From NCBI GenBank assembly GCA_951406725.2, contig OX597818.1, positions 57,040,001 through 57,104,000 of the forward strand: DNA of 64,000 nt, in the 5' to 3' direction. Within the stretch, counting starts at the first letter, position 1; each line of letters starts with the position of its first letter. This DNA is from Octopus vulgaris. Taxonomy: Eukaryota. Made by a program: the position numbers and the translations under genes. Below, piece after piece: positions 6,598 through 64,000 of this stretch. The notes beneath the pieces were generated by a model, which did no database searches, was not told the origin of the DNA, and saw only the letters and a list, made by a program, of their open reading frames with translations.

Positions 6598-7050
6598 GAG
6601 TGAGAGAGCAGTGCATGCCATCAAAGTGACACTGGGGTAAAATATACGAAGCCCAATATACCCATCATGACTACCCGTCTGATAAAGGTACACCAGGCAC
6701 ATGCATCACAACCATATATGCACGACATGGTGATCTCATATCAAGATAAACAGCACATGACCTTGCAGGTGCGGCCCAGTTAGAATTTTCTTCTGGTTGA
6801 GTAGCCCATCCCGCTCAAAAGGTCCCTGAATAAGGGTTGTTTAAGGGTGTTGAACGAAACACCCATCTTTCCAGAGGTGAATTATTCAAACCCCAAAGAA
6901 TCCCTCTCAACACATGGCTATGATGCTCCCCCACTACTTCTGCTCGTGATCAGAGATGCACATATCGTCAGCCACTAAGGGACATGCTCAACTGGTTAAG
7001 GTCAAACAACTGACAAGCAAATCTGTGGTATTGAGCAGAATATTTGCTGT
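6598..7050. mobile_element. Unclassified ~450-bp insertion within (ATT)n
   Basis: Complex, higher-GC block bounded on both sides by ATT repeats; no motif recognised. Confidence 0.4.
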
Positions 7051-7535
7051 TATTATTATTATTATTATTATTAAGGTGGTGAGCTGGCAGAATCGTTAGC
7101 ATGCTGGATGAAATGCTTAGCGGTGTCTCACCTGTCGCTACGTTCTGAGTTCAAATCCTGCTTAGACTGTGTTTGCCTTTCAGCCTTTCGGGGTCGATAA
7201 ATTAAGTACCAGGTGCGTACTGGAGTCGATCTAACCCACTGGACCTCGTCCCCCAAAATTTCAAGCCTTGTGCCTAGAATAGAAAAAATTATTGTTATTA
7301 TTATTATTATTATTATTATATGAGGTGGTGAGCTGGCAGAATTGTTAGCACACTGGATGAAATGCTTAGTGATATTTCGTTCGTCACTACATTCTGGGCC
7401 CAAATTCCGCCGAGGTCAACTTTGCCTTTCAGCCTTTCGGGGTCGATAAATTAAGTACCAGTTGCGTACTGGGTTCGATCTAATTGACAGGCCCCATCCC
7501 CTAAAATTTCAGGCCTTGTATCTATAGTAGAAAGG

Positions 7536-7568
<33 letters not shown>

Positions 7569-7609
7569 TATTATTATTATTATTATTATTTATTATTATT
7601 ATTATTATA

Positions 7610-8015
7610 GGCGCAGGAGTGGGTGTGTGGTAAGTAGCTTGCTAACCAACCACATGGTTCCGGGTTCAGTCCCACTGCGTGGCATCTTGGGAAAGTGTCT
7701 TCTGCTATAGCCCCGGGCTGACCAATGCCTTGTGAGTAGATTTGGTAGACGGAAACTGAAAGAAGCCTGTCGTATATATGTATATATATATATGTGTGTG
7801 TGTTTGTGTGTCTGTGTTTGTCCCCCTAGCATTGCTTGACAACCGATGCTGGTGTGTTTATGTCCCCGTCACTTAGCGGTTCGGCAAAAGAGACCGATTG
7901 AATAAGTACTGGGCTTACAAAGAATAAGTCCCGGGGTCGATTTGCTCGACTAAAGGCGGTGCTCCAGGATGGCCGCAGTCAAATGACTGAAACAAGTAAA
8001 AGAGTAAAAGAGAGA
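7610..8015 (+). mobile_element. tRNA-derived SINE family B (CORE-like box, internal TA/TG microsatellite), full length
   Basis: ggcgcaggagtgggtgtgtggtaag...gggttcagtccc...cttgggaaagtgtctt...ggtagacggaaactgaaagaagc...tail aagtaaaagag. Related copies: 19070-19490(+), 24720-25085(-), 33707-33940(-), 35762-36232(-), 41270-41815(-), 43893-44315(+), 45980-46420(-), 54682-55502(-), 58800-59138(-). Confidence 0.9.
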
Positions 8016-8542
8016 GTAAGGTGGCAAGCTGGCAGAATCGTTAGCAGGTTGGACAAAATGCTTAGCAGTATCTCACCTGTTGCTACGTTCTGAGTTCAAA
8101 TTCCATCGAGGTTGACTTTACCTTTCATCCTTTCAGGGTTGATAAAATAAGCACCAGTTGAACACTGGGGTCGATGTAATTGACTCATCCCCTCGCCTCA
8201 AATTACTGCCCTTGTGGCAAAATTTGAACCCTTATTATTATTATTATTATTATTATTATCATTATTATTATTATTATTATTGTTATTATTATCATTATTG
8301 CTATTATCATTATCATTATCATTATGAAAAAGGTGGTCTAGCTGACAGAATCGCTTGTGCGCCAGGCAAAATGCTTAGTGGAATTTCGTCTGCCCTTACG
8401 TTCTGAGTTCAAATTCTGCTGAGGTCAACTTTGTCTTTCATCCTTTCGGGGTCGATAAATTAAGTACCAGTTGAAGACTGGGGTCAATGTAATCGACTCA
8501 TCCCCAGCTACCCCAAGCTGTCCTTGTGGCAAAATTTGAAAC

Positions 8543-8618
<76 letters not shown>

Positions 8619-9001
8619 TTGAAGGTGGCGAGCTGGCCAAAATCATTAACATATTAGACATCTATCTTTATGTTCTGAGTTCAAACTCCACTGAGGTCGA
8701 CTTTGCCTTTCATCCTTTCAGGGTCAGTTAAATAAGTACCAGTTACGCACTGGGGTTGATGTAATCGACTAGTCTCCTCCCCAAAATTTCAGGCCTTGTG
8801 CCCTTAGTAAAAAGGATTATTATTACTATCATTATTATTATCATTGTTATTGTTATTATTATTATTATCATTATCATTATTATTATTATTCATTATTATT
8901 ATTATATGAGGTGATGAGCTGGTAGAATCGTTAGCACACCGGATGAACTGCTTAGTGGTATTTCGTTCGTTGCTATGTTCTGAGCTCAAATTCACCTGAG
9001 G

Positions 9002-18284: not shown

Positions 18285-18347
18285 CCATTCCTTAACTCTA
18301 AGTATCCATTCCTTAACTCTAAGTATCCATTCCTTAACTCTAAGTAC
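18285..18347 (+). repeat. 3 x 21-bp tandem repeat fused to a truncated SINE
   Basis: ccattccttaactctaagtat x3; the last copy runs into the SINE sequence taagtaccagttacgc. Confidence 0.9.
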
Positions 18348-18905
18348 CAGTTACGCACTGGGGTCGATGTAATCGACTTGATCCCTTTGTCTGTCCTTGT
18401 TTGTTCCCTCTATGTTTAGCCCCTTGTGGGTAATAAAGAAATAGGTATTTTGCTGGTGCTACGTTCTGAGTTCAAATTCTGCCGCGGTCGACTTTGCCAT
18501 TCATCCTTTCAGAGTCGATTAAATAAGTACCAGTTACGCACTGGGGTCGATGTAATCGACTTAATACCTATATCTGTCCTTGTTTGTTCCCTCTATGTTT
18601 AGCCCCTTGTGGGTAATAAAGAAATAGGTATTTTGCTGGTGTTACGTTCTGAGTTCAAATTCCGCCGAGGTCGACTTTGCCTTTCATCCTTTCGGAGTCG
18701 ATTAAATAAGTGCCAGTTACGCACTGGGGTCGATGTAATCGACTTAATCCGTTTGTCTGTCCTTGTTTGTCCTCTCTGTGTTTAGCCCCTTGTGGGTAGT
18801 AAAGAAATCGGAGTCGATAAATTAAGTACCTGTTGTATACTGGAGTCGATCTAATCGATTTACTCCTTTCTCTGAAGTTACTGACCTTGTGCCAAAATTT
18901 GAAAT
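18341..18905 (+). mobile_element. Family-A SINE multimer (183-bp units)
   Basis: Units restart at ggtattt (18444, 18627). Other arrays or copies: 22217-22620, 26100-26697, 38835-39222(-), 46726-47120(-), 47395-47640, 51757-52140, 59322-59960, 60562-61650, 62932-63322. Confidence 0.9.
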
Positions 18906-25925: not shown

Positions 25926-27108
25926 AGAGTCGGAATAAATACCCCGAGACGCCTAAACTACTCTGCCAGTTGGCCGTTATGTATTGCATCGATAGATTTG
26001 GTCTTAGCTGTCATCAACTATGCATAAATTCGCCATGTCCGATGTCATTTCTTTTCCTGCAAACTTGACACTAACGTTTTTGATATATGAACAAAGAAAG
26101 GCGGCGAGCTGGCAGAAACGTTAGCACGCCGGGCGAAATGCTTAGCGGTATTTCGTCTGCGTTACGTTGTGAGTTCAAATTCCGCCGAGGTCGACTTTGC
26201 CTTTCATCCTTTCGGGGTCGATAAATTAAGTACCAGTTGCGCACTGGGGTCGATGTAATCGACTTAATACCTATGTCTGTCATTGTTTGTCCCCTCTATG
26301 TTTAGCCCTTGTGGGTAAGTAAAGAAATAGGTATTTCGTCTGTCATTACATTGTGAGTTCAAATTCCACCGAGGTCGACTTTAACTTTCTTCCTTTCGAG
26401 GTCGATTTAATAAATACCAGTTACGCACTGGGGTCGATATAATCGACTTAATCCGTTTGTCTGTCCTTGTTTGTCCTTTCTGTGTTTAGCCCCTTGTGGG
26501 TAGTAAAGAAATAAATATTTCGTCTGTCGTTACGTTCTGAGTTCAATATTCCGCCGAGGTCGACTTTGCCATTCATCCATCGGGGTCGATTTAATAAGTA
26601 CGAGTTGCGCACTGGGGTCGATGTAATCGACTTAATCCGTTTGTCTGTCCTTGTTTGTCCTCTCTATGTTTAGCCCCTTGTAGGTAGTAAAGAAATATAT
26701 ATGGACAAATATATAGGAGAGTTTAAGAGTTTTGAATAAACTTCATCAACAAACGAAGGGGTGCCTTTTCAATAACACACATAAAGACACCCCCTACACA
26801 AAATAAACGTATATATATATATTTATATAAATGGTCTCTTCAATTTATAACAACTTGAATCTTTCTGTAAGGATTGAGTTGTTGCTAGCATGCGAAGTTC
26901 CGTTGTTAGGATGCAGGTAGCAAACGCATTGTTAAACTTGAGAAAAGTTTTGCATATTTTTAATGTTCCGCTTACGGATTGTATTTGTAACGTGCATGTC
27001 AGCTGGCGGACTACTTTTTCTGAAAATTCAAGGTATTTCAGATTGTTACTTAGGCCACACCATGTAAAATATGGAAGGATTTTTCTGACCCTCATATATA
27101 TATATATA

Positions 27109-31779: not shown

Positions 31780-32457
31780 GTATATATATGTATATATATA
31801 TATGTATATATATATATGTATATATATATATATGTATATATATGTATATATGTGTATGTGCATATATATGTGTATGTATATATATGTATATGTATATATA
31901 TATGTATATGTATATGTATATATATGTATATGTGTATATATGTATATGTATATATATATATGTATATGTATATGTATATATACATGTATATGTATATATA
32001 TACATACATACACACACACACATATATATATATATATGATATCTGTTATATATGTGTAGGTATGTATGAAGCGCTAGGATGAATTCGATTTTCCTAAAAA
32101 AAAAACAGCAGGAAGAACACAAGAACATAAAGAAAACACAAAACCTTGATTTCTTTCACACCTTTCCCCTCCCCTCCCCCTCCATTGCTTTTTTTTTCAT
32201 TTTATATATATTATTATTAATATTCAAAGTTTCAATTTTACATTCTCCGTCTCATGAGTTCCAACTAATTTGCAGTTTCAGACAAGATTTCATAGATTTT
32301 CAATGTCTCACCGCAAAGAATTATTATACAGAACTCTATAGGACACTACACACATATATGCAAATACACACACACACAGGTACAAATAATCGCATACATA
32401 TACACACATACATGCATGAAACTGACGTACTGCCTATAAGCGCGGCTGACACTACTT

Positions 32458-32585
<128 letters not shown>

Positions 32586-32746
32586 CCCTTCAGGTATATA
32601 TATTCTTTTCTAGTCTAAACACAAGGCCTAACAGTTTAGGGGAGGGGGCCAGCCAATTAGATCGACCCCAGTACACAACTGGTACTTAATTTATCGAATC
32701 CGAAAGGATGAAAAGCTAAGTTGACCTCGAGACAGACGAAATACTG

Positions 32747-32782
<36 letters not shown>

Positions 32783-32803
32783 AAGATCATTTGCCAACAT
32801 AGC

Positions 32804-32914
32804 GTGGCAGTCCTAGTTCAGGACGAACTCTATTGCTATTTAACCCCAGGAAACATGGTTGATGTTTTCTGGGGGTAAATAACAGTAACATTCGTCCTAA
32901 ACCAGGACTACCAC
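32804..32914. repeat. Imperfect fold-back (~53-bp arms) in (TA)n; duplicate at 34872-34982
   Basis: gtggcagtcctagttcaggacgaa...aaacat [ggttg] atgttt...ttcgtcctaaaccaggactaccac; homologous to 37061-37128. Confidence 0.8.
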
Positions 32915-32988
32915 AAATAATCTTTACTCTAGGGTACTGTTACTGAATGGAATGTCTCTCTTTGAAAGATTTACAAATAGAAATTGTC

Positions 32989-33047
<59 letters not shown>

Positions 33048-33049
33048 CA

Positions 33050-33695
33050 GGGTGTCATCATTCCACTTTTCTCCTCTTTTGTATGGTCACACCTCGAATA
33101 TTGCTGACCCTTGCGGTCTCCCCATACAAAACAAAACATCTCGAGGATTGAATCACCTCAGAGGGTACTCACTAAGCGAATTGAAGGCATGACTGATCTC
33201 GATCATTGGGACTGCTTTAAAGCCTTGAAACTCTACTCTCTCCAGCCCTGCGGCGAGCGGTACATCATTTGTACGATGTGGAGAATATACCGCCAACATT
33301 GCCCAAACAACATGAACATTAGTTTCAAGGTTCATCCAAGGCTTGGACCACGGACTATATGTCCCCTATCCAATTCAGGATCACAACATATAGGTACACT
33401 GCGACACAATTTCTTTTCCTCAACAGGCCCTGCCCTGTTTAACATTGTCCCAAAACTGATCAAAAAGGAAAAGGATCGCATCACCTTTAAACGGAGTCTG
33501 AACAGAATTCTTCAAAGAATACCAGAGAAGCCACCCATAATTGGATACAACTCACTCAACAAGAACTCACTACTTGAATGGACCATAAACAAAACTTAAA
33601 AAGGATTTAGATAATCCTATCAGGTGGTGCTATTGAGTTAGACATGGCCTGGACCACCTTTGGTCGAAACATGTCTAAGTTTATCTAAGTTTATA
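33050..33695 (+). mobile_element. 5'-truncated CR1-group LINE (ORF2 C-terminus plus 3'UTR), copy 1
   Basis: LFSSFVWSHLEYC*PLRSP...IESPQRVLTKRIEGM...LKLYSLQ...ERY...GPALFN...FKRSLNRIL...NSLLEW; 3' stem-loop and (ctaagtttat)2 tail. Confidence 0.85.
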
Positions 33696-33894
33696 TCTCT
33701 ATATATTCTTTTACTTGTTTCAGTTATTTGATTGGGGCCATGCTGGAGCACTGCCTTTAGTCGACCGCAGGACTTATTCATTGAAAACCTAGTACTTATT
33801 CTATCGATCTCTTACCAAACCACTACGTTTCGGGGACATAAACACACCAGCATCTGCTGTCAAGCGATGTTGGGGGCAGAAACACAGACACACA

Positions 33895-33936
<42 letters not shown>

Positions 33937-34083
33937 CTCTCTAATATGCATACATATTCGCTAATATAAGTGTGTATATATATGCCTATATATATATGTA
34001 TATATATGTATATGTGTATATATGTATATGTATATATATATATGTATATGTATATGTATATATACATGTATATGTATATATAT

Positions 34084-34160
<77 letters not shown>

Positions 34161-34576
34161 ATCTGTTATATATGTGTAGGTATGTATGAAGCGCTAGGAT
34201 GAATTCGATTTTCCTAAAAAAAAACAGCAGGAAGAACACAAGAACATAAAGAAAACACAAAACCTTGATTTCTTTCACACCTTTCCCCTCCCCTCCCCCT
34301 CCATTGCTTTTTTTTTCATTTTATATATATTATTATTAATATTCAAAGTTTCAATTTTACATTCTCCGTCTCATGAGTTCCAACTAATTTGCAGTTTCAG
34401 ACAAGATTTCATAGATTTTCAATGTCTCACCGCAAAGAATTATTATACAGAACTCTATAGGACACTACACACATATATGCAAATACACACACACACAGGT
34501 ACAAATAATCGCATACATATACACACATACATGCATGAAACTGACGTACTGCCTATAAGCGCGGCTGACACTACTT

Positions 34577-34640
<64 letters not shown>

Positions 34641-34798
34641 CCTTTCAGGTATATATATTCTTTTCTACTCTAAACACAAGGCCTAACAGTTTAGGGGAGG
34701 GGGCCAGCCAATTAGATCGACCCCAGTACATAACTGGTACTTAATTTATCGAATCCGAAAGGATGAAAAGCTAAGTTGACCTCGAGACAGACGAAATA

Positions 34799-34850
<52 letters not shown>

Positions 34851-35056
34851 AAGATCATTTGCCAACATAGCGTGGCAGTCCTAGTTCAGGACGAACTCTA
34901 TTGCTATTTAACCCCAGGAAACATGGTTGATGTTTTCTGGGGGTAAATAACAGTAACATTCGTCCTAAACCAGGACTACCACAAATAATCTTTACTCTAG
35001 GGTACTGTTACTGAATGGATGTCTCTCTTTGAAAGATTTACAAATAGAAATTGTCT

Positions 35057-35102
<46 letters not shown>

Positions 35103-35104
35103 CA

Positions 35105-35750
35105 GGGTGTCATCATTCCACTTTTCTCCTCTTTTGTATGGTCACACCTCGAATATTGCTGACCCTTGCGGTCTCCCCATACAAAACAAAACATCTCGAG
35201 GATTGAATCACCTCAGAGGGTACTCACTAAGCGAATTGAAGGCATGACTGATCTCGATCATTGGGACTGCTTTAAAGCCTTGAAACTCTACTCTCTCCAG
35301 CCCTGCGGCGAGCGGTACATCATTTGTACGATGTGGAGAATATACCGCCAACATTGCCCAAACAACATGAACATTAGTTTCAAGGTTCATCCAAGGCTTG
35401 GACCACGGACTATATGTCCCCTATCCAATTCAGGATCACAACATATAGGTACACTGCGACACAATTTCTTTTCCTCAACAGGCCCTGCCCTGTTTAACAT
35501 TGTCCCAAAACTGATCAAAGAGGAAAAGGATCGCATCACCTTTAAACGGAGTCTGAACAGAATTCTTCAAAGAATACCAGAGAAGCCACCCATAATTGGA
35601 TACAACTCACTCAACAAGAACTCACTACTTGAATGGACCATAAACAAAACTTAAAAAGGATTTAGATAATCCTATCAGGTGGTGCTATTGAGTTAGACAT
35701 GGCCTGGACCACCTTTGGTCGAAACATGTCTAAGTTTATCTAAGTTTATA
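35105..35750 (+). mobile_element. 5'-truncated CR1-group LINE, copy 2
   Basis: Same as 33050-33695; one amino-acid difference seen in the ORF track (KK/KE). Confidence 0.85.
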
Positions 35751-35975
35751 TCTCTATATATTCTTTTACTTGTTTCAGTTATTTGATTGGGGCCATGCTG
35801 GAGCACTGCCTTTAGTCGACCGCAGGACTTATTCATTGAAAACCTAGTACTTATTCTATCGATCTCTTACCAAACCACTACGTTTCGGGGACATAAACAC
35901 ACCAGCATCTGCTGTCAAGCGATGTTGGGGGCAGAAACACAGACACACAAACACGCACACACACACACACACACA

Positions 35976-36022
<47 letters not shown>

Positions 36023-36971: not shown

Positions 36972-37047
<76 letters not shown>

Positions 37048-37219
37048 TTATATAGTTATCGCCAAGCTAACATGGCAGTCCAGAAAAATAGGACGAAAGC
37101 TGCCGTTGATTAGCTCCAAGAGGCCATCGCATCTAGCTAGCTATGTGACACACAAACCTGTGTCCATTACAACCTCCGACCATGGGAGGTCATCAGCTTT
37201 CCCGTGCTGGTTCAAGCAT

Positions 37220-37260
37220 CCACAGACTAGTTTCAAGGTATTTGCCCTTTATCAATGTGG
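37220..37260 (-). ncRNA. Minimal HHR with compensatory U3-A8 core
   Basis: CCACA-TTGATAA-AGGG-caaata-CCTT-GAAA-CTAG-TC-TGTGG: perfect stem I, palindromic stem III, GUC site. Overlaps a 24-bp-arm terminal hairpin (37255-37306). Confidence 0.8.
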
Positions 37261-37449
37261 AGTAGTTGAACCCAGCAGACGCCTGCTAGGTTCGACTACT
37301 CCACATACATGTGTATATATATATATGTGTGTGTACGTATGTGCGTGTATATATATATGTGTGTGTGTATATATACAGATTTATATATATATACATACAG
37401 ATTAATATATATATATACAGATTAATATATATATATGTATTCATACATA

Positions 37450-37760
37450 CATATATATATATATATATCACCGTTACCGACCAGGCTATCAGATGTTGCT
37501 ACACATCGCTGGTCACAATGCGCTTCGCATTGTTGTAGCCTTCAAACGACGCCACCCTGGTGGCTAAGCGAGCAGGCCAACAGAAGAAAGAATGAGAGAA
37601 TGTTGTGGCGAAAGAGTATAGCAGGGATCGCCACCACCCGCCTCGTGGAGCTTTAGGTGTTTTCGCTCAATAAACACTTACAACGCCCGGTCTGTGGAGG
37701 TGCAATGGCCCAGTAGTTAGGGCAGCGGACTCGCGGTTTCAATTCCTAGACCTGGCGTCG
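37450..37760. mobile_element. Head-C SINE body with a different tail (minus strand, 37450-37692) abutting a plus-strand head fragment
   Basis: Shares the ...gtttattgagcgaaaacacctaaagctccacgagg body with 49330 and 54865. Confidence 0.7.
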
Positions 37761-58763: not shown

Positions 58764-61700
58764 CGTTATATTGATATTTATTATTATGTCTAGTTTATTC
58801 TTTTACTAGTTAGTCATTTGACTGCGGCCTTGCTGGAGCACCGCCTTTAGTCGAAGAAATCGACCACAGGACTTATTCTATCTGTCTCTTTTGCCGAACC
58901 GCTAAGTTACGGGGATGTAAACACACCAACATCGGCTGTGGGAGGACAAACACAAACACAAAAATACACAAATACATACGATGGGCTTCTTCCAGTTTCC
59001 GTCTACCAAATCCACTCACAAAGCTTTAATCGGACCGAGGATATAGAATAAGACACTTGCCCAAGGTGCCACGCAGTGGGACTGAACCTGAAACCATGTG
59101 GTTGGGCAGCAAGTATCTTACCACTCAGCCCGTCCTGCGTTATACATAAAAACACTAAAACTTCGATTATAAAACTTCGATTATTCGGTATGTATTAGTA
59201 CCGTATCACATTTTTACAGAGAAAAGGCTGACAGTGAGTTCGAAGTGTTGCCGTCTATGACATTCGAAAGCAGTCATCAATATACATATCATGCTGTTAT
59301 ATTTGGTATTATCGATCTAAAGGCGGCGAGGTGGCAGAAACGTTAGCACGCCGGGCGAAATGCGCAGCCGTATTTCGTCTGCCGTTACGTTCTGAGTTCA
59401 AATTCCGCCGAGGTCGACTTTGCCTTTCATCCTTTCGGGGTCGATTAATTAAGTACCAGTTACGCACTGGGGTCGATGTAATCGACTTAATAACTATGTC
59501 TGTCCTTGTTTGTTCCCTCTGTGTTTAGCCCTTTTGTGGGTAACAAAGAAATAGGTATTTCGTCTGCCGCTATGTTCTGAGTTCAAATTCCGCCGAGGTC
59601 GACTTTGCCTTTCAGCCTTTCGAGGTCGATTAAATAAGTACCAGTTATGCACTAGGGTTGATATAATCGACTTAATCCGTTTGTTTGTCCTTGTTTGTCC
59701 TCTGTGTTTAGCCCCCTGTGGGTAGTAAAGAAATAGGTATTTCGTCTACCGTTACGTTCTGAGTTCAAATTCCGCCGAGGTCGACTTTGCCTTTCATCCT
59801 TTCGGGGTCTCCGTTTGTCTGTCCTTGTTTGTCCCCTCTGTGTTTAGCCTCCTGAGGGTAGTAAAGAAATAATTATTATCGTTCCTTTCGGGGTCTCCGT
59901 TTGTCTGTCCTTGTTTGTCCCCTCTGTGTTTAGCCTCCTGAGGGTAGTAAAGAAATAATTATTATCGTTCTTAGCTATGGTTTAGCTTCGACAGTAATTC
60001 TTCTGTCTGATTAAATAAACATATTATTTGATTTTTTCTCTTTCCTTTTGGACATGTCGCTGCTTGCTCACACTTGCTTCTACAACATAAAATTCCTTTG
60101 ATTTTGTAAAGCAATAAAATTAAGTAATAGAGTCAATTATTGTTGTTGTCTCAACGAACAAATTTTTAATTTCCTGGAGTTTTCGCCGGAATAAAACTGG
60201 CACTCTGTCGGTTACGACGACGAGTTTTCCAGGGGATCCCATCAATGGAACAGCCTGTTCGTAATATTAACGTGAAAGTGGTTGAGGATTCCGCAGACGA
60301 GCGGAATCCTTAATGTAACTCTCAGGGAGTTTCAGCGTGTCACAGAATGATGTGATAAGGCTGGCCATTTTGAATTACTCCTACTACTCATTTTTGTCAG
60401 TTCTGTGAACTGCAGCAACGTGAATAAAATTGTCTTGCTCAAGTGCAAAATACGCCACCGAGAATCGAACCCGAACCACTAAGCCACGTGTCTTCACTTC
60501 ACAGGAATAACACTACCACTAGTAACAGTTGAATATATTCTTCATTATTGATAGTATATAAGGCGGCGACTGGCAGAATCGTTAGCACGTCGGGCGAAAT
60601 GCTTAGCAGTATTAGGTCTGCTGTTACGTTCTGAGTTCATATTCCGCCGAGGTCGACTTGGTCTTGCATCCTTTCGGGGTCGATAAATTAAGTACCAGTT
60701 ATGCACTGGGGTCGATATGGTCGACTTAATCCCTTTGTCTGTCCTTGTTTGTCCCCTCTGTGTTTAGCCCCTTGTGGGTAATAAAGAAATAGATATTTCG
60801 TCTGTCTTTACGTTCTGAGTTCAAATTCCGCCGAGGTCAACCTTGCCTTTCATCCTTTCGGGGTCGATAAATTAAGTACCAGTTACGCACTGGGGTCGAT
60901 GTAATCGACTTAATCCCTTTGTCTGTCCTTGTTTGTCCCCTCTATGTTTAGCCCCTTGTGGGTAGTAAAGAAATATATATTCTTTATTATTAATAGTTTA
61001 TAAAGCGGCGAGCTGGCAGAATCGTTAGCACGTCGGGCGAAATGCTTAGCAGTATTTCGTCTGCTGTTACGTTCTGAGTTCAAATTCCGCCGAGGTCGAC
61101 TTTGCCTCTCATCCTTTCGGGGTTGATAAATTAAGTACCAGTTACGCACTGGGGTCGATATGGTCGACTTAATCCGTCTATCTGTCCTTGTTTACTTCCT
61201 CTGTGTTTAGCCCCTTGTGGGTAGTAAAGAAATAGGTATTTCGTCTGTCTTAAAGGCGGCGAGCTGGCAGAAACGTTAGCACGCCGGGCGAAATGCTTTG
61301 TGGTATTTCGTCTGCCGCTACGTTCTGAGTTCAAATTCCGCCGAGGTTGACTTTGCCTTTCAGCCTTTCGGGGTCGATTAAATAAGTACTAGTTACGCAC
61401 TGGGGTCGATATAATCGACTTAATCCGTTTGTCTGTCCTTATTTGTCCTCTCTGTGTTTAGCTCCTTGTGAGTAGTAAAGAAATAGGTATTTCGTCGGCC
61501 GCTACGTTCTGAGTTCAAATGCTGCCGAGGTCGACTTTGCCTTTCATCCTTTCGGGGTCGATAAAATAAGTATCAGTTGAGCACCGGGGCGATGTAATCG
61601 ACTCATTCCCTGCCCCAAAATGGCTGCCTTAGTGGCAAAATTTGGAACCTTTATTATATTAAAAGTACGCATCCATCATTTAGTCTAAGTTCGATGGATG

Positions 61701-64000
61701 GACTTGACAACAGAAGGGCTGGTAGAATGACTATCATCGTCTTATTACGGCTCACTGCGTTCACAGTTCAAATCCCACCGCGGTCATCTTTGTCTTCTAT
61801 TCTTCAGGTATCAATAAAATAAAATATATCAAGTACAGACGTATAAATGACTAGGAACAATTTATTTATCTTTAAAGTATCATAAATAATAATGGAATTA
61901 TAAAAGAAGATACTTTAAAATTGGAAACTATTTTAAATCAAACAGATATTTATTTAGTTCGGTATTTTTAAAATGAGTGATATGTTTTTCTTCAAGTTTC
62001 GCTTCTTTATTTCAGAATTAAAATAATATTTCTTTGCATGCAATCTGTTATCAATTTACATACAAACTATGTCTGCAAGCTACTGTCCCTCATTCTATTC
62101 AAAGAAAAATTTTAATTTATTTTTCTGTTGAAACGACCGTCTCCTAAAAAAGCGTACTGATAGCTCGCCAGCCATTGCTATTAAAACTTTAGATAATTTA
62201 TCACAAAATAATTTACAAATTTCTGAGATGAGTACATACTGTAGATTTCGAGGCGAAATTTTAAAAATATGATAAAAATAAATTCATAGAAAAATATTTG
62301 TTCAAAAGAAACACGATATTTAAAAACACGAGACTATTTTGTTCATTTGCATGCCTAGATTTTGGCGCTAATGAAGTCTGGAAGCCTTGCATGCAACGTT
62401 TTGGTTATGTTTAGTGGCAGCCAGTTTTCAGCCATAAATCAATTACACGGAATTTCAATGGCTCTGCTATTAGAACCGGTGTCAAGGTCTTTTCAGTGAA
62501 AAGATATGGTTTTCAATAGACTTGGAATATTTTCGTCGTCTCTTTATTTAAAATCTGGGACATGCATGCCTTTTTGTCTCCGACCGAAACTTCACATCAT
62601 TTCAGAACTCAAACTTCCCCGAGAATAAGTCAGAACATAGAAATAAAATTTCACTATACTTAACGTAGTTGATTAAAGTTAGATGCACACTGTTTTTAAC
62701 AAAAGTTTACATTTTCTATAATTTTCTACCATGTTTATCAGCGATATTTGCCACCTACTTAATTCCGATAACGACTTTACTACGTATAAAAACCTATGCT
62801 TCTTTTGTAAACGAACACGAAAAATTCGACGCACCTGCATTTAGCAGGATGTCTTTGTGTTATGTGAGACATTATATAGCATACATACATTGACCATCAT
62901 GGTTTTGTGTTTTATATATATTCAGTTCAAAGGCGGCGAGCTGGCAGAAACGTTAGCAGTATTTCGTCTGCCGTTACGTTCTGAGTTCAAATTCCGCCGA
63001 GGTCGACTTTGCCTTTCATCCCTTTGGGGTCGATAAATTAAGTACCAGTTACGCACTGGGGTCGATATAATCGACTTAATCCCTTCGTCTGTCATTGTTT
63101 GTCTTCTCTGTGTTTAGCTCCTTGGGTAGTAAAGAAATAGGTATTTCGTCTGTCGTTACGTTCTGAGTTCAAATTCCGCCGAGGTCGACTTTGCCTTTCA
63201 TCCTTTCGGGGTCGATAAATAAAGTACCAGTTTCGCACTGGGGTCGATGTAATCGACTTAATCCGTTTTTCTGTCCTTGTTTGTCCCCTCTATGTTTAGC
63301 CCCTTGTGGGTAGTAAAGAAATATATATATATATATATATTCAGTTCATATATATTCAGTAATTTTGTTCTGAATTTTAAATGTATACTTAACAAATACA
63401 AAGATACTAATTATTGTCGTATGACGGAGCACAACGTAAGAGGAGACCTTATTTAGTATGTAAGCAATACAAATAAGGAATTCACCACAATTTAGGAATT
63501 CTGGTAAGATAGGTACAAATTGTAGTTTATATTAGGCTTATATGCGAAAGGAATTCTGTAAACAGTCCGAACGGTTTATCAGACGCGAGGTTTAGTTTCT
63601 GTTACCCAAGAGTTTGTGGAGGCGCGTGGCCCAGTGGTTACGGGTGTTGGACTCACGATCGCAAGATTGTAGTTTCGATTGCTGGACCGGGCGATGCATT
63701 GTGTTCTTGAGCAAAACACTTCATTTTATGTTGCTCCAGGCCACATTGTATGACGGACCTATGTTCCGTCCAGGGAGGAATATATACGCCAGAGAAACGG
63801 GGAAACCGGGGCTATGTTCCTTACAGAGTAATGTGGACTAATCAGTTGATCTAATTATGTTGTTTCACATGAAATGTCTCATTCTTAATTACTTGTTATT
63901 CCAGTAATTTAAAAACTCAATCAGGTATACCTTGCATTTATTTCGACTCTTATTCTCTCCCAACAAATATTGTTGAGATACAAAATTCGTATCCACAAAC

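What the first reader, a model, noticed from the sequence alone, without database searches (positions are those of the whole stretch)
37050..37306. Compact element linking the fold-back and ribozyme classes; HHR with U3-A8 covariation
Seen: a ~255-bp unit between microsatellites with a terminal 24-bp-arm hairpin, a clean minimal HHR whose core is UUGAUAA, several further hairpins, and a distal end homologous to the fold-back at 32793-32914. Established: C3-G8 pair in the active HHR, so U3-A8 is compensatory. Inference: this points to selection for catalysis and shows that fold-backs and HHR units can be parts of one family.
Basis: partly seen in the sequence, partly recalled or inferred. Interest (0 to 1): 0.75.

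Follow-up and report, generated by a model that had tools for sequence, protein, structure and literature searches.

The report
Penelope-mobilised hammerhead retrozyme, truncated copy
This stretch is a shortened, probably inactive copy of a ~360-base repeat found at thousands of places in this animal genome; the repeat carries a predicted self-cutting hammerhead RNA and is likely copied from an RNA circle by Penelope-type retrotransposon enzymes, which is a known kind of element.

Summary
The observation mostly holds. 37052-37281 (minus strand) is a 5'-truncated copy of a 361-bp unit that also occurs head-to-tail (family A). It carries a type I hammerhead whose U3-A8 core is the family state: 68 exact U3-A8 cores, no C3-G8.

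The fold-back at 32783-32996 belongs to a collinear sister family B (354 bp, ~60% identical) whose hammerhead has C3-G8 (84 of 100 listed). The 3-8 pair therefore swaps between sisters, along with helix I pairs and four palindromic helix III variants.

The terminal hairpin is not a family structure. It is the stump of an inverted copy and is predicted to block this copy's ribozyme. Insertions show Penelope hallmarks: inverted 5'-truncated arms and a ~60-nt tail on one end. Their 3' ends are fixed at two sites (131 of 184), none at the cut site, and 38 exceed one unit.

Verdict: a new family pair of non-LTR retrozymes (non-autonomous Penelope-like elements). U3-A8 hammerheads are already published. 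Cleavage, circular RNA and the autonomous partner are not shown.

The parts
36974..37046 (.). (AC)n microsatellite flank
37052..37281 (-). 5'-truncated copy of family A unit (subfamily A1), unit positions ~133-361 of 361, 90% identical to natural full units; ends at the family's 'short' 3' end without the ~60-nt tail
37219..37261 (-). type I hammerhead: helix I 37261-37256/37224-37219; U3 37255, A8 37250; helix II 37248-37245/37238-37235; GAAA 37234-37231; palindromic ACUAGU (helix III only as a dimer); predicted cut between 37225 and 37224
37255..37306 (.). 24-bp-arm hairpin: junction with a ~28-34-nt stump of an inverted copy (37273-37306), cut off by the right-hand microsatellite; predicted to sequester helix I and U3
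   Evidence: similar junctions in L006, L009, L032
37052..37160 (-). 3' structured domain shared with family B (GACACAG hairpin, GAGGC/GCCUC stem-loop, GUCC/GGAC hairpin); candidate recognition site for the mobilising enzyme (inference)
37307..37468 (.). TA/TG-rich microsatellite flank
32783..32996 (.). fold-back of sister family B: antisense arm 32783-32856 ends at the short end, sense arm 32860-~32996 carries the tail; no hammerhead left
34851..35058 (.). second copy of that fold-back, inside a ~2.07-kb local tandem duplication

Best explanation
The unit is a 5'-truncated, likely inactive genomic copy of a non-coding ~361-bp repeat with a predicted type I hammerhead ribozyme (a non-LTR retrozyme), which likely spreads from a circular RNA using Penelope-like element (PLE) enzymes. 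Proposed cycle: (1) head-to-tail copies are transcribed (inferred). (2) Two hammerheads pair through the palindromic helix III and cut out a monomer (predicted), which is ligated to a circle (inferred by analogy with mussel and axolotl retrozymes). (3) A PLE reverse transcriptase-GIY-YIG enzyme starts at a fixed site ~175-235 nt downstream of the cut and copies round the template, through the cut site and often past one unit (the pattern is shown; the enzyme is inferred). (4) Integration, often at microsatellites, leaves a direct arm plus an inverted 5'-truncated arm with a ~60-nt tail on one end only (shown). Short two-armed insertions are the 'fold-backs'. Families A (U3-A8) and B (C3-G8) are sister lineages whose RNA fold was kept by compensatory change. 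This copy has one hammerhead, and the inversion stump is predicted to block it.
For: FAMILY AND UNIT: 2891 first-look candidates, 40 scored. Periods 361/362/365/343 bp in A and 354 bp in B; dimers and a perfect 362-bp trimer. CORE: 68 U3-A8, 0 C3-G8 in A1. 465 matches for A2/A3, the first 100 listed all U3-A8. B: 211 matches; of the first 100 listed, 84 C3-G8, 9 U3-G8, 5 C3-A8, 1 U3-A8, 1 A3-G8 (hand count). COVARIATION: helix I CCACA/UGUGG (A1), CUGCA/UGCAG (A2), CUGUG/CACAG (B). Helix III palindromes ACUAGU, ACAUGU, ACGCGU, AUCGCGAU; duplex -4.6 to -10.1 kcal/mol against about +6 as a monomer loop. Helix II pair 10.2-11.2 among the 68: G-C 44, A-U 18, G-U 5, A-C 1 (hand count). Whole-unit structure predicted from one group and tested on another keeps 5 of 5 and 8 of 9 (A1/A2) and 14-15 of 21-22 (A/B) doubly changed pairs. 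Circular folding z -2.0 to -11.6 in 46 unit-length pieces (3 duplicates; 12 shuffles each). INSERTION ANATOMY: 52 of 85 inversion junctions have one tail end and one short end; 1 tail/tail, 1 short/short, 31 with an internal end. 131 of 184 segments end at these two sites, 0 at the cut; 6 of 184 5' ends lie at the cut; 38 exceed one unit. These are the PLE hallmarks of PMC8557442. An intact 765-781-aa RT + GIY-YIG PLE family is in the genome. No A/B unit follows a PLE ORF as its 3' end in 124 loci. This copy's helix I probability is 0.00 with the hairpin and 0.80-1.00 without it.
Against: No cleavage or circular RNA is shown. No autonomous PLE homologous to A/B was found: the 30 GIY-YIG loci fetched (of 150 listed) share no sequence with A/B, apart from one A copy lying on the opposite strand beside a PLE. 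The tail is ~60 nt, against 30-40 nt described for PLEs. Family B has an atypical A.G at 10.1-11.1. Each between-family change is one event, inherited by many copies. Adjacent units in tandems are not more alike than the best other locus (6 of 29; medians 94.2 and 94.6%), nor are inverted arms (6 of 16), so a single circular template per insertion is not proven. In 8 of 9 Xenopus retrozyme dimers no cleavage was seen (10.64898/2026.07.22.740005).
Confidence: 0.7

Rival explanations
1. Same non-autonomous PLE-mobilised family, but copied from uncleaved linear multimeric transcripts; the hammerhead acts rarely or only trims precursors.
For: More-than-unit copies and read-through of the cut site fit multimers as well as circles. 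Tandem units are not more alike than other loci. Low in vitro activity is reported for PLE minimal hammerheads (PMC4209133).
Against: Strong covariation of the core and of four dimer-enabling palindromes. The whole unit folds as a conserved closed structure. Retrozymes of the same size in mussel accumulate as circles (PMC7229834).
Confidence: 0.15
2. The unit is the pseudo-LTR/3' end of an autonomous PLE that I did not find, and copies are merely its 5'-truncated insertions.
For: All PLE insertion hallmarks are present. The abundant autonomous PLE here has a 3'-UTR hammerhead that is also U3-A8 (8 of 8 regex hits), most with ACAUGU. Retrozymes are reported to be pLTR-derived.
Against: Units join head-to-tail with no ORF between. 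tblastn of the PLE protein on 124 A/B loci hit 4 loci (two are the same place), none with the unit directly behind an ORF on its strand. No BLAST homology between A/B and the PLE 3' UTRs.
Confidence: 0.1
3. One reading: a compact, hairpin-capped, catalytically active element whose terminal hairpin is part of its design.
For: The hairpin, hammerhead and further stems are present.
Against: Family copies continue past the hairpin position into ~130 further nt of unit. The arm is a reverse-complement duplicate of unit sequence. It is predicted to abolish helix I, and one hammerhead cannot form helix III.
Confidence: 0.03
4. A MITE or fold-back DNA transposon, or satellite DNA, with an incidental hammerhead-like motif.
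For: Many copies are long inverted repeats.
Against: Arms are asymmetric (tail on one side), centres vary, 5' ends are scattered, and covariation is at RNA level.
Confidence: 0.02

Closest known systems
Non-LTR retrozymes of metazoans (Cervera & de la Pena 2020, PMC7229834; read parts 2-3 of 6 plus passages)
   Same: Non-coding 350-390-bp unit as in mussel; one type I hammerhead per unit; tandem and solo copies; highly self-paired; weak palindromic helix III needing dimers as in newt/axolotl; mismatch at the base of helix II has a precedent (HHR_Amex2 U.U; here family B A.G).
   Different: U3-A8 core in family A. Mostly dispersed insertions with inverted arms and a one-sided tail; 'inverted' does not occur in that paper's main text. 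Cleavage and circles are untested here.
PLE pseudo-LTR hammerheads, incl. U3-A8 variant of S. mansoni Cercyon (Cervera & de la Pena 2014, PMC4209133; read parts 1-2 of 4)
   Same: U3-A8 core (~1,300 hits there); palindromic 15.2-16.2; nearby hammerheads on opposite strands; mostly single truncated motifs.
   Different: No RT-EN ORF in the unit; short 4-bp helix II, no extra nucleotide after A9 in family A; the unit itself is tandem.
EN+ Penelope-like elements, insertion structure (Craig et al. 2021, PMC8557442; passages only)
   Same: 5' truncation, partial tandems, inverted 5'-truncated copy, tail at one end only, microsatellite flanks.
   Different: Non-autonomous; tail ~60 nt rather than 30-40; partner not identified.
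Vertebrate retrozymes as non-autonomous PLE derivatives (bioRxiv 10.64898/2026.07.22.740005; read parts 1-3 of 5)
   Same: Same conclusion on dependence on PLEs.
   Different: That work rests on co-occurrence and pLTR homology, with no mollusc ('mollus' 0 hits; 'tail' and 'inversion' 0 hits). Here the evidence is the insertion anatomy, and no pLTR homologue was found.
Natural U3-A8 hammerheads (Perreault et al. 2011, PMC3088659; two passages)
   Same: C3-G8 to U3-A8 covariation in nature, stated there to be active in vitro.
   Different: Here the swap separates two collinear sister repeat families in one genome.

Membership tests
Type I hammerhead ribozyme | Core U4 G5 A6, A9, G12 A13 A14, A15.1-U16.1, H17 and a Watson-Crick 3-8 pair | tested here: met
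   (3-8 pair is U-A)
Type I hammerhead ribozyme | Helices I, II, III supported by covariation | tested here: met
   92% of cells paired, slid controls 29-53%; 15 rows, one (L081) given on the wrong strand and left in; related sequences inflate the shuffle test.
Type I hammerhead ribozyme | Self-cleavage | not testable with these tools
   needs an assay; this copy is predicted blocked
Non-LTR retrozyme | 150-450-bp unit in tandem, one type I hammerhead per unit | tested here: met
   361/354-bp units, dimers, trimer; the window copy itself is a truncated monomer
Non-LTR retrozyme | No protein-coding ORF | tested here: met
   head-to-tail junctions without ORF; PBS/PPT absence not tested separately
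Non-LTR retrozyme | Highly self-paired monomer RNA | tested here: met
   prediction only:
Non-LTR retrozyme | Accumulates as circular RNA | not testable with these tools
   no run on record as RNA; only contigs
Penelope-like element (autonomous) | ORF with RT and GIY-YIG endonuclease flanked by the repeat | tested here: not met
PLE-mobilised element | Inverted 5'-truncated copy and tail at one end | tested here: met
   52 of 85 junctions tail/short; 131 of 184 fixed 3' ends
PLE-mobilised element | Sequence link to an autonomous partner's pLTR | tested here: inconclusive
PLE-mobilised element | Microsatellite insertion bias | tested here: inconclusive
   frequent by eye, not counted against background in a microsatellite-rich genome
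MITE / fold-back DNA transposon | Symmetric fixed terminal inverted repeats | tested here: not met
   asymmetric ends and variable centres; target-site duplications not scored

The most novel reading that the evidence does not exclude
These sister families record in genomic DNA how retrozymes are copied: a PLE enzyme starts at a fixed internal site on a hammerhead-made RNA circle, runs through the ligation junction and past one unit, and leaves PLE-type inverted arms and a one-sided tail. That would be direct anatomical evidence for PLE mobilisation of retrozyme circles, so far argued from co-occurrence and pLTR homology. The families also give a natural matched series (C3-G8 against U3-A8; four helix III palindromes) for testing dimeric hammerheads.
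Probability: 0.5. Interest if true: 0.55.

Novelty: new member of a known kind. Interest (0 to 1): 0.36.

Why it matters
The locus itself is a decayed copy, and the U3-A8 core is known. The family is useful in three ways. It extends non-LTR retrozymes to a cephalopod-like genome: four literature searches listed no paper describing them there, judged from listings and the papers read; repeat databases were not available. Its insertion anatomy bears directly on the open question of which enzyme mobilises animal retrozymes and from what template. It also explains the genome's 'fold-backs' as inverted truncated insertions, not a separate class. Young subfamily A2 (units 96-98% alike, natural trimer) is ready for cleavage and circular-RNA tests.

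Tried and rejected
- Rfam gathering scan of the window: no match.
- One search used wrong coordinates (flank, not unit), so its single hit is void; corrected.
- Sequencing runs: no RNA holder listed. Contigs of runs guessed to be RNA, and of one unlabelled run, carry family sequence, one spanning a 358-nt unit junction. Contigs cannot show strand, ends or circularity, so this is not used as evidence.
- Idea that inversion junctions form at the unit's own RNA helices: enriched in A1 (5 of 19, null mean 1.2, p 0.003) but not in A2 (3 of 26, p 0.25). In B, 11 of 17 loci picked by the fold-back query (biased) against 2 of 23 picked by the hammerhead. A minority route, not the rule.
- Test for a single template per insertion (unit-to-unit and arm-to-arm identity): inconclusive.
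- A supposed third sister family from the shared-motif search: 5 of the first 100 listed were an unrelated repeat (looks like Tc1/mariner remnants, recalled and untested). The 2783 count therefore includes some false matches.
- A second hammerhead on the plus strand at GUCC..GGAC-GAAA (37077-37098): rejected; the last A is mostly T in the family, and there is no core 5' strand.
- Heterodimer between A2 and the PLE hammerhead: rejected by inspection, as helix I strands are incompatible.
- Grouping errors: one search misassigned five rows; redone, where one (L141) remained. Nine of 46 pieces (3 duplicates, 6 with deletions) were left out of that alignment.
- A paper on 3-8 pair tolerance (DOI recalled) was not held; PMC7151607, PMC3884650 and PMC11662667 were seen only in listings. 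No supplements were read; the supplementary figures of PMC4209133, PMC7229834, PMC8557442 and the preprint may list cephalopod elements.
- Earlier-findings look-ups by sequence and by words returned nothing.

Full report
1. OBSERVATION. The stretch lies between (AC)n and TA-rich repeats. On the minus strand my descriptor finds one type I hammerhead in the whole window: helix I UCCACA/UGUGGA, core UUGAUAA (U3 37255, A8 37250), a 4-bp helix II, GAAA, the palindrome ACUAGU and C17 at 37225. The terminal hairpin is real (arms 37255-37278 and 37283-37306). The whole piece folds better than all 200 shuffles on both strands (z -5.6, -7.0). Rfam reports nothing. The direct similarity to the fold-back is 17 of 21 nt, E 3.6-6.8.

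2. IT IS ONE COPY OF A LARGE FAMILY. The genome (2.8 Gb, 227 contigs; cephalopod-like by my recall of its SINEs and by earlier AI notes, not tested) gave 2891 first-look candidates; the best of the 40 scored were 88-93% identical over query 3-232. Flanks show a 361-bp unit joined head-to-tail; the window copy covers about positions 133-361. A younger subfamily A2/A3 has 465 pattern matches, with dimers and a perfect 362-bp trimer; units are 96-98% alike. A motif shared by families A and B has 2783 matches against 4 in the reversed control, 5 of the first 100 being unrelated.

3. THE 3-8 PAIR. In A1, 68 exact cores are U3-A8; of 5 with another base at position 3, four are C3-A8, one G3-A8, none C3-G8. 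All 100 listed A2/A3 cores are U3-A8. So there is no covariation inside family A; U3-A8 is its fixed state. The fold-back at 32783-32996 belongs to a second family B (1009 candidates; 354-bp unit). B aligns with A end to end, with the same tail and 3' end: 222 of 373 columns, score 229 against 68+/-11 in 200 shuffles; 205 of 346 majority columns. B's hammerhead sits at the same place and has C3-G8 in 84 of 100 listed of 211 matches. The swap is thus compensatory between sisters. It is one event, and its direction is unknown.

4. WIDER COVARIATION. Helix I differs by paired changes among A1, A2 and B, and helix III is a different palindrome in each: ACUAGU, ACAUGU, ACGCGU, AUCGCGAU. These can pair only between two hammerheads (duplex -4.6 to -10.1 kcal/mol; monomer loop about +6), the dimeric arrangement described in PMC4209133 and PMC7229834. 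On 15 rows, 92% of cells pair against 29-53% in slid controls; one row was on the wrong strand, so the true 3-8 count is 9 U-A and 5 C-G. Helix II pair 10.2-11.2 among the 68 A1 cores is G-C 44, A-U 18, G-U 5, A-C 1 (hand count). Beyond the ribozyme, the unit folds as a long rod with the hammerhead at its tip plus a branched 3' domain. Structures predicted from one group keep 5 of 5, 8 of 9 and 14-15 of 21-22 doubly changed pairs in another. Against this: B has A.G at 10.1-11.1, and the window copy's helix II is weak (0.13-0.26).

5. THE HAIRPIN AND THE FOLD-BACKS. Copies of both families often consist of an antisense arm and a sense arm with 3' ends outward. In 52 of 85 junctions one end stops at the short end and the other carries a ~60-nt tail; tail/tail and short/short occur once each, and 31 have an internal end. 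The window fold-back obeys this rule. This is the PLE pattern of an inverted 5'-truncated copy and a one-sided tail (PMC8557442, passages). The window hairpin is the start of such an inverted arm, cut off by the microsatellite; similar junctions continue into long arms in L006, L009 and L032. It is predicted to sequester helix I completely (0.00 against 0.80-1.00 without it). With only one hammerhead, this copy is likely dead. Most junctions lie at arbitrary positions; folding back at the unit's own helices is a minority route.

6. TEMPLATE. Of 184 segments in 98 loci, 131 end 3' at the two fixed sites and none at the cut site; 5' ends are scattered (6 at the cut); 38 exceed one unit. A cut linear monomer would give ends at the cut and never exceed one unit, so the template was a circle or an uncleaved multimer (inference). 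The identity test meant to separate these was inconclusive. Expression could not be assessed.

7. PARTNER. The genome holds an abundant PLE family with intact 765-781-aa ORFs (RVT_1, a CxxC linker that PMC8557442 ties to Neptune and Nematis, C-terminal GIY-YIG). Its 3'-UTR hammerhead is also U3-A8 (8 of 8 regex hits), mostly with ACAUGU. It shares no detectable sequence with A/B, and no A/B unit follows a PLE ORF in 124 loci. It is a candidate helper only.

8. KNOWN. Natural U3-A8 hammerheads are reported and stated to be active (PMC3088659), including ~1,300 in S. mansoni PLEs (PMC4209133). Non-LTR retrozymes of 350-390 bp in mussel form circles (PMC7229834). A 2026 preprint argues that retrozymes are non-autonomous PLE derivatives, and found 8 of 9 dimers inactive. 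Searches listed no description of these families; supplements were not read.

9. VERDICT. New member (a sister pair of families) of a known kind. It works like a non-LTR retrozyme mobilised by PLEs (0.7). The sequence-level membership features are met; cleavage and circles are untested. Interest 0.36.

Noticed in passing
window ~31855-36000: ~2.07-kb local tandem duplication (93-97% identical) that duplicates the family B fold-back exactly (32781-32925 = 34849-34993).
   Followed up: partly
L128:712-3009; G000 hits: Abundant, apparently young PLE family with many intact 781-aa frames; its 3' UTR has CCAAT/TGACGTC-rich tandem repeats followed by a U3-A8 minimal hammerhead.
   Followed up: partly
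L127:2199-2490 and 3098: An A2 unit lies ~600 bp beyond the 3' end of a PLE on the opposite strand; chance or co-insertion not determined.
   Followed up: partly
family B: Hammerhead with A.G at 10.1-11.1; CCCG varies to CCTG and CCCA as expected from CpG decay.
   Followed up: no
L164, L021, L163: 341-343-bp deletion variants; L164 tandem units are 98.9% alike but 89% to other loci, as expected from one template or local duplication.
   Followed up: partly
L100 minus strand ~690; L123 minus strand ~526: Two further unrelated type I hammerhead candidates (C3-G8 with CUCGAG palindrome; U3-A8) near GIY-YIG remnants.
   Followed up: no
window 7050-8890, 18341-18808, 26147-26697, 59370-63323: Tandem 182-272-bp arrays of a SINE-like repeat (recalled as the cephalopod Nin-domain SINE, untested).
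   Followed up: no
L169-L173: Unrelated repeat resembling Tc1/mariner transposase remnants (recalled, untested) that matches the shared motif by chance.
   Followed up: partly
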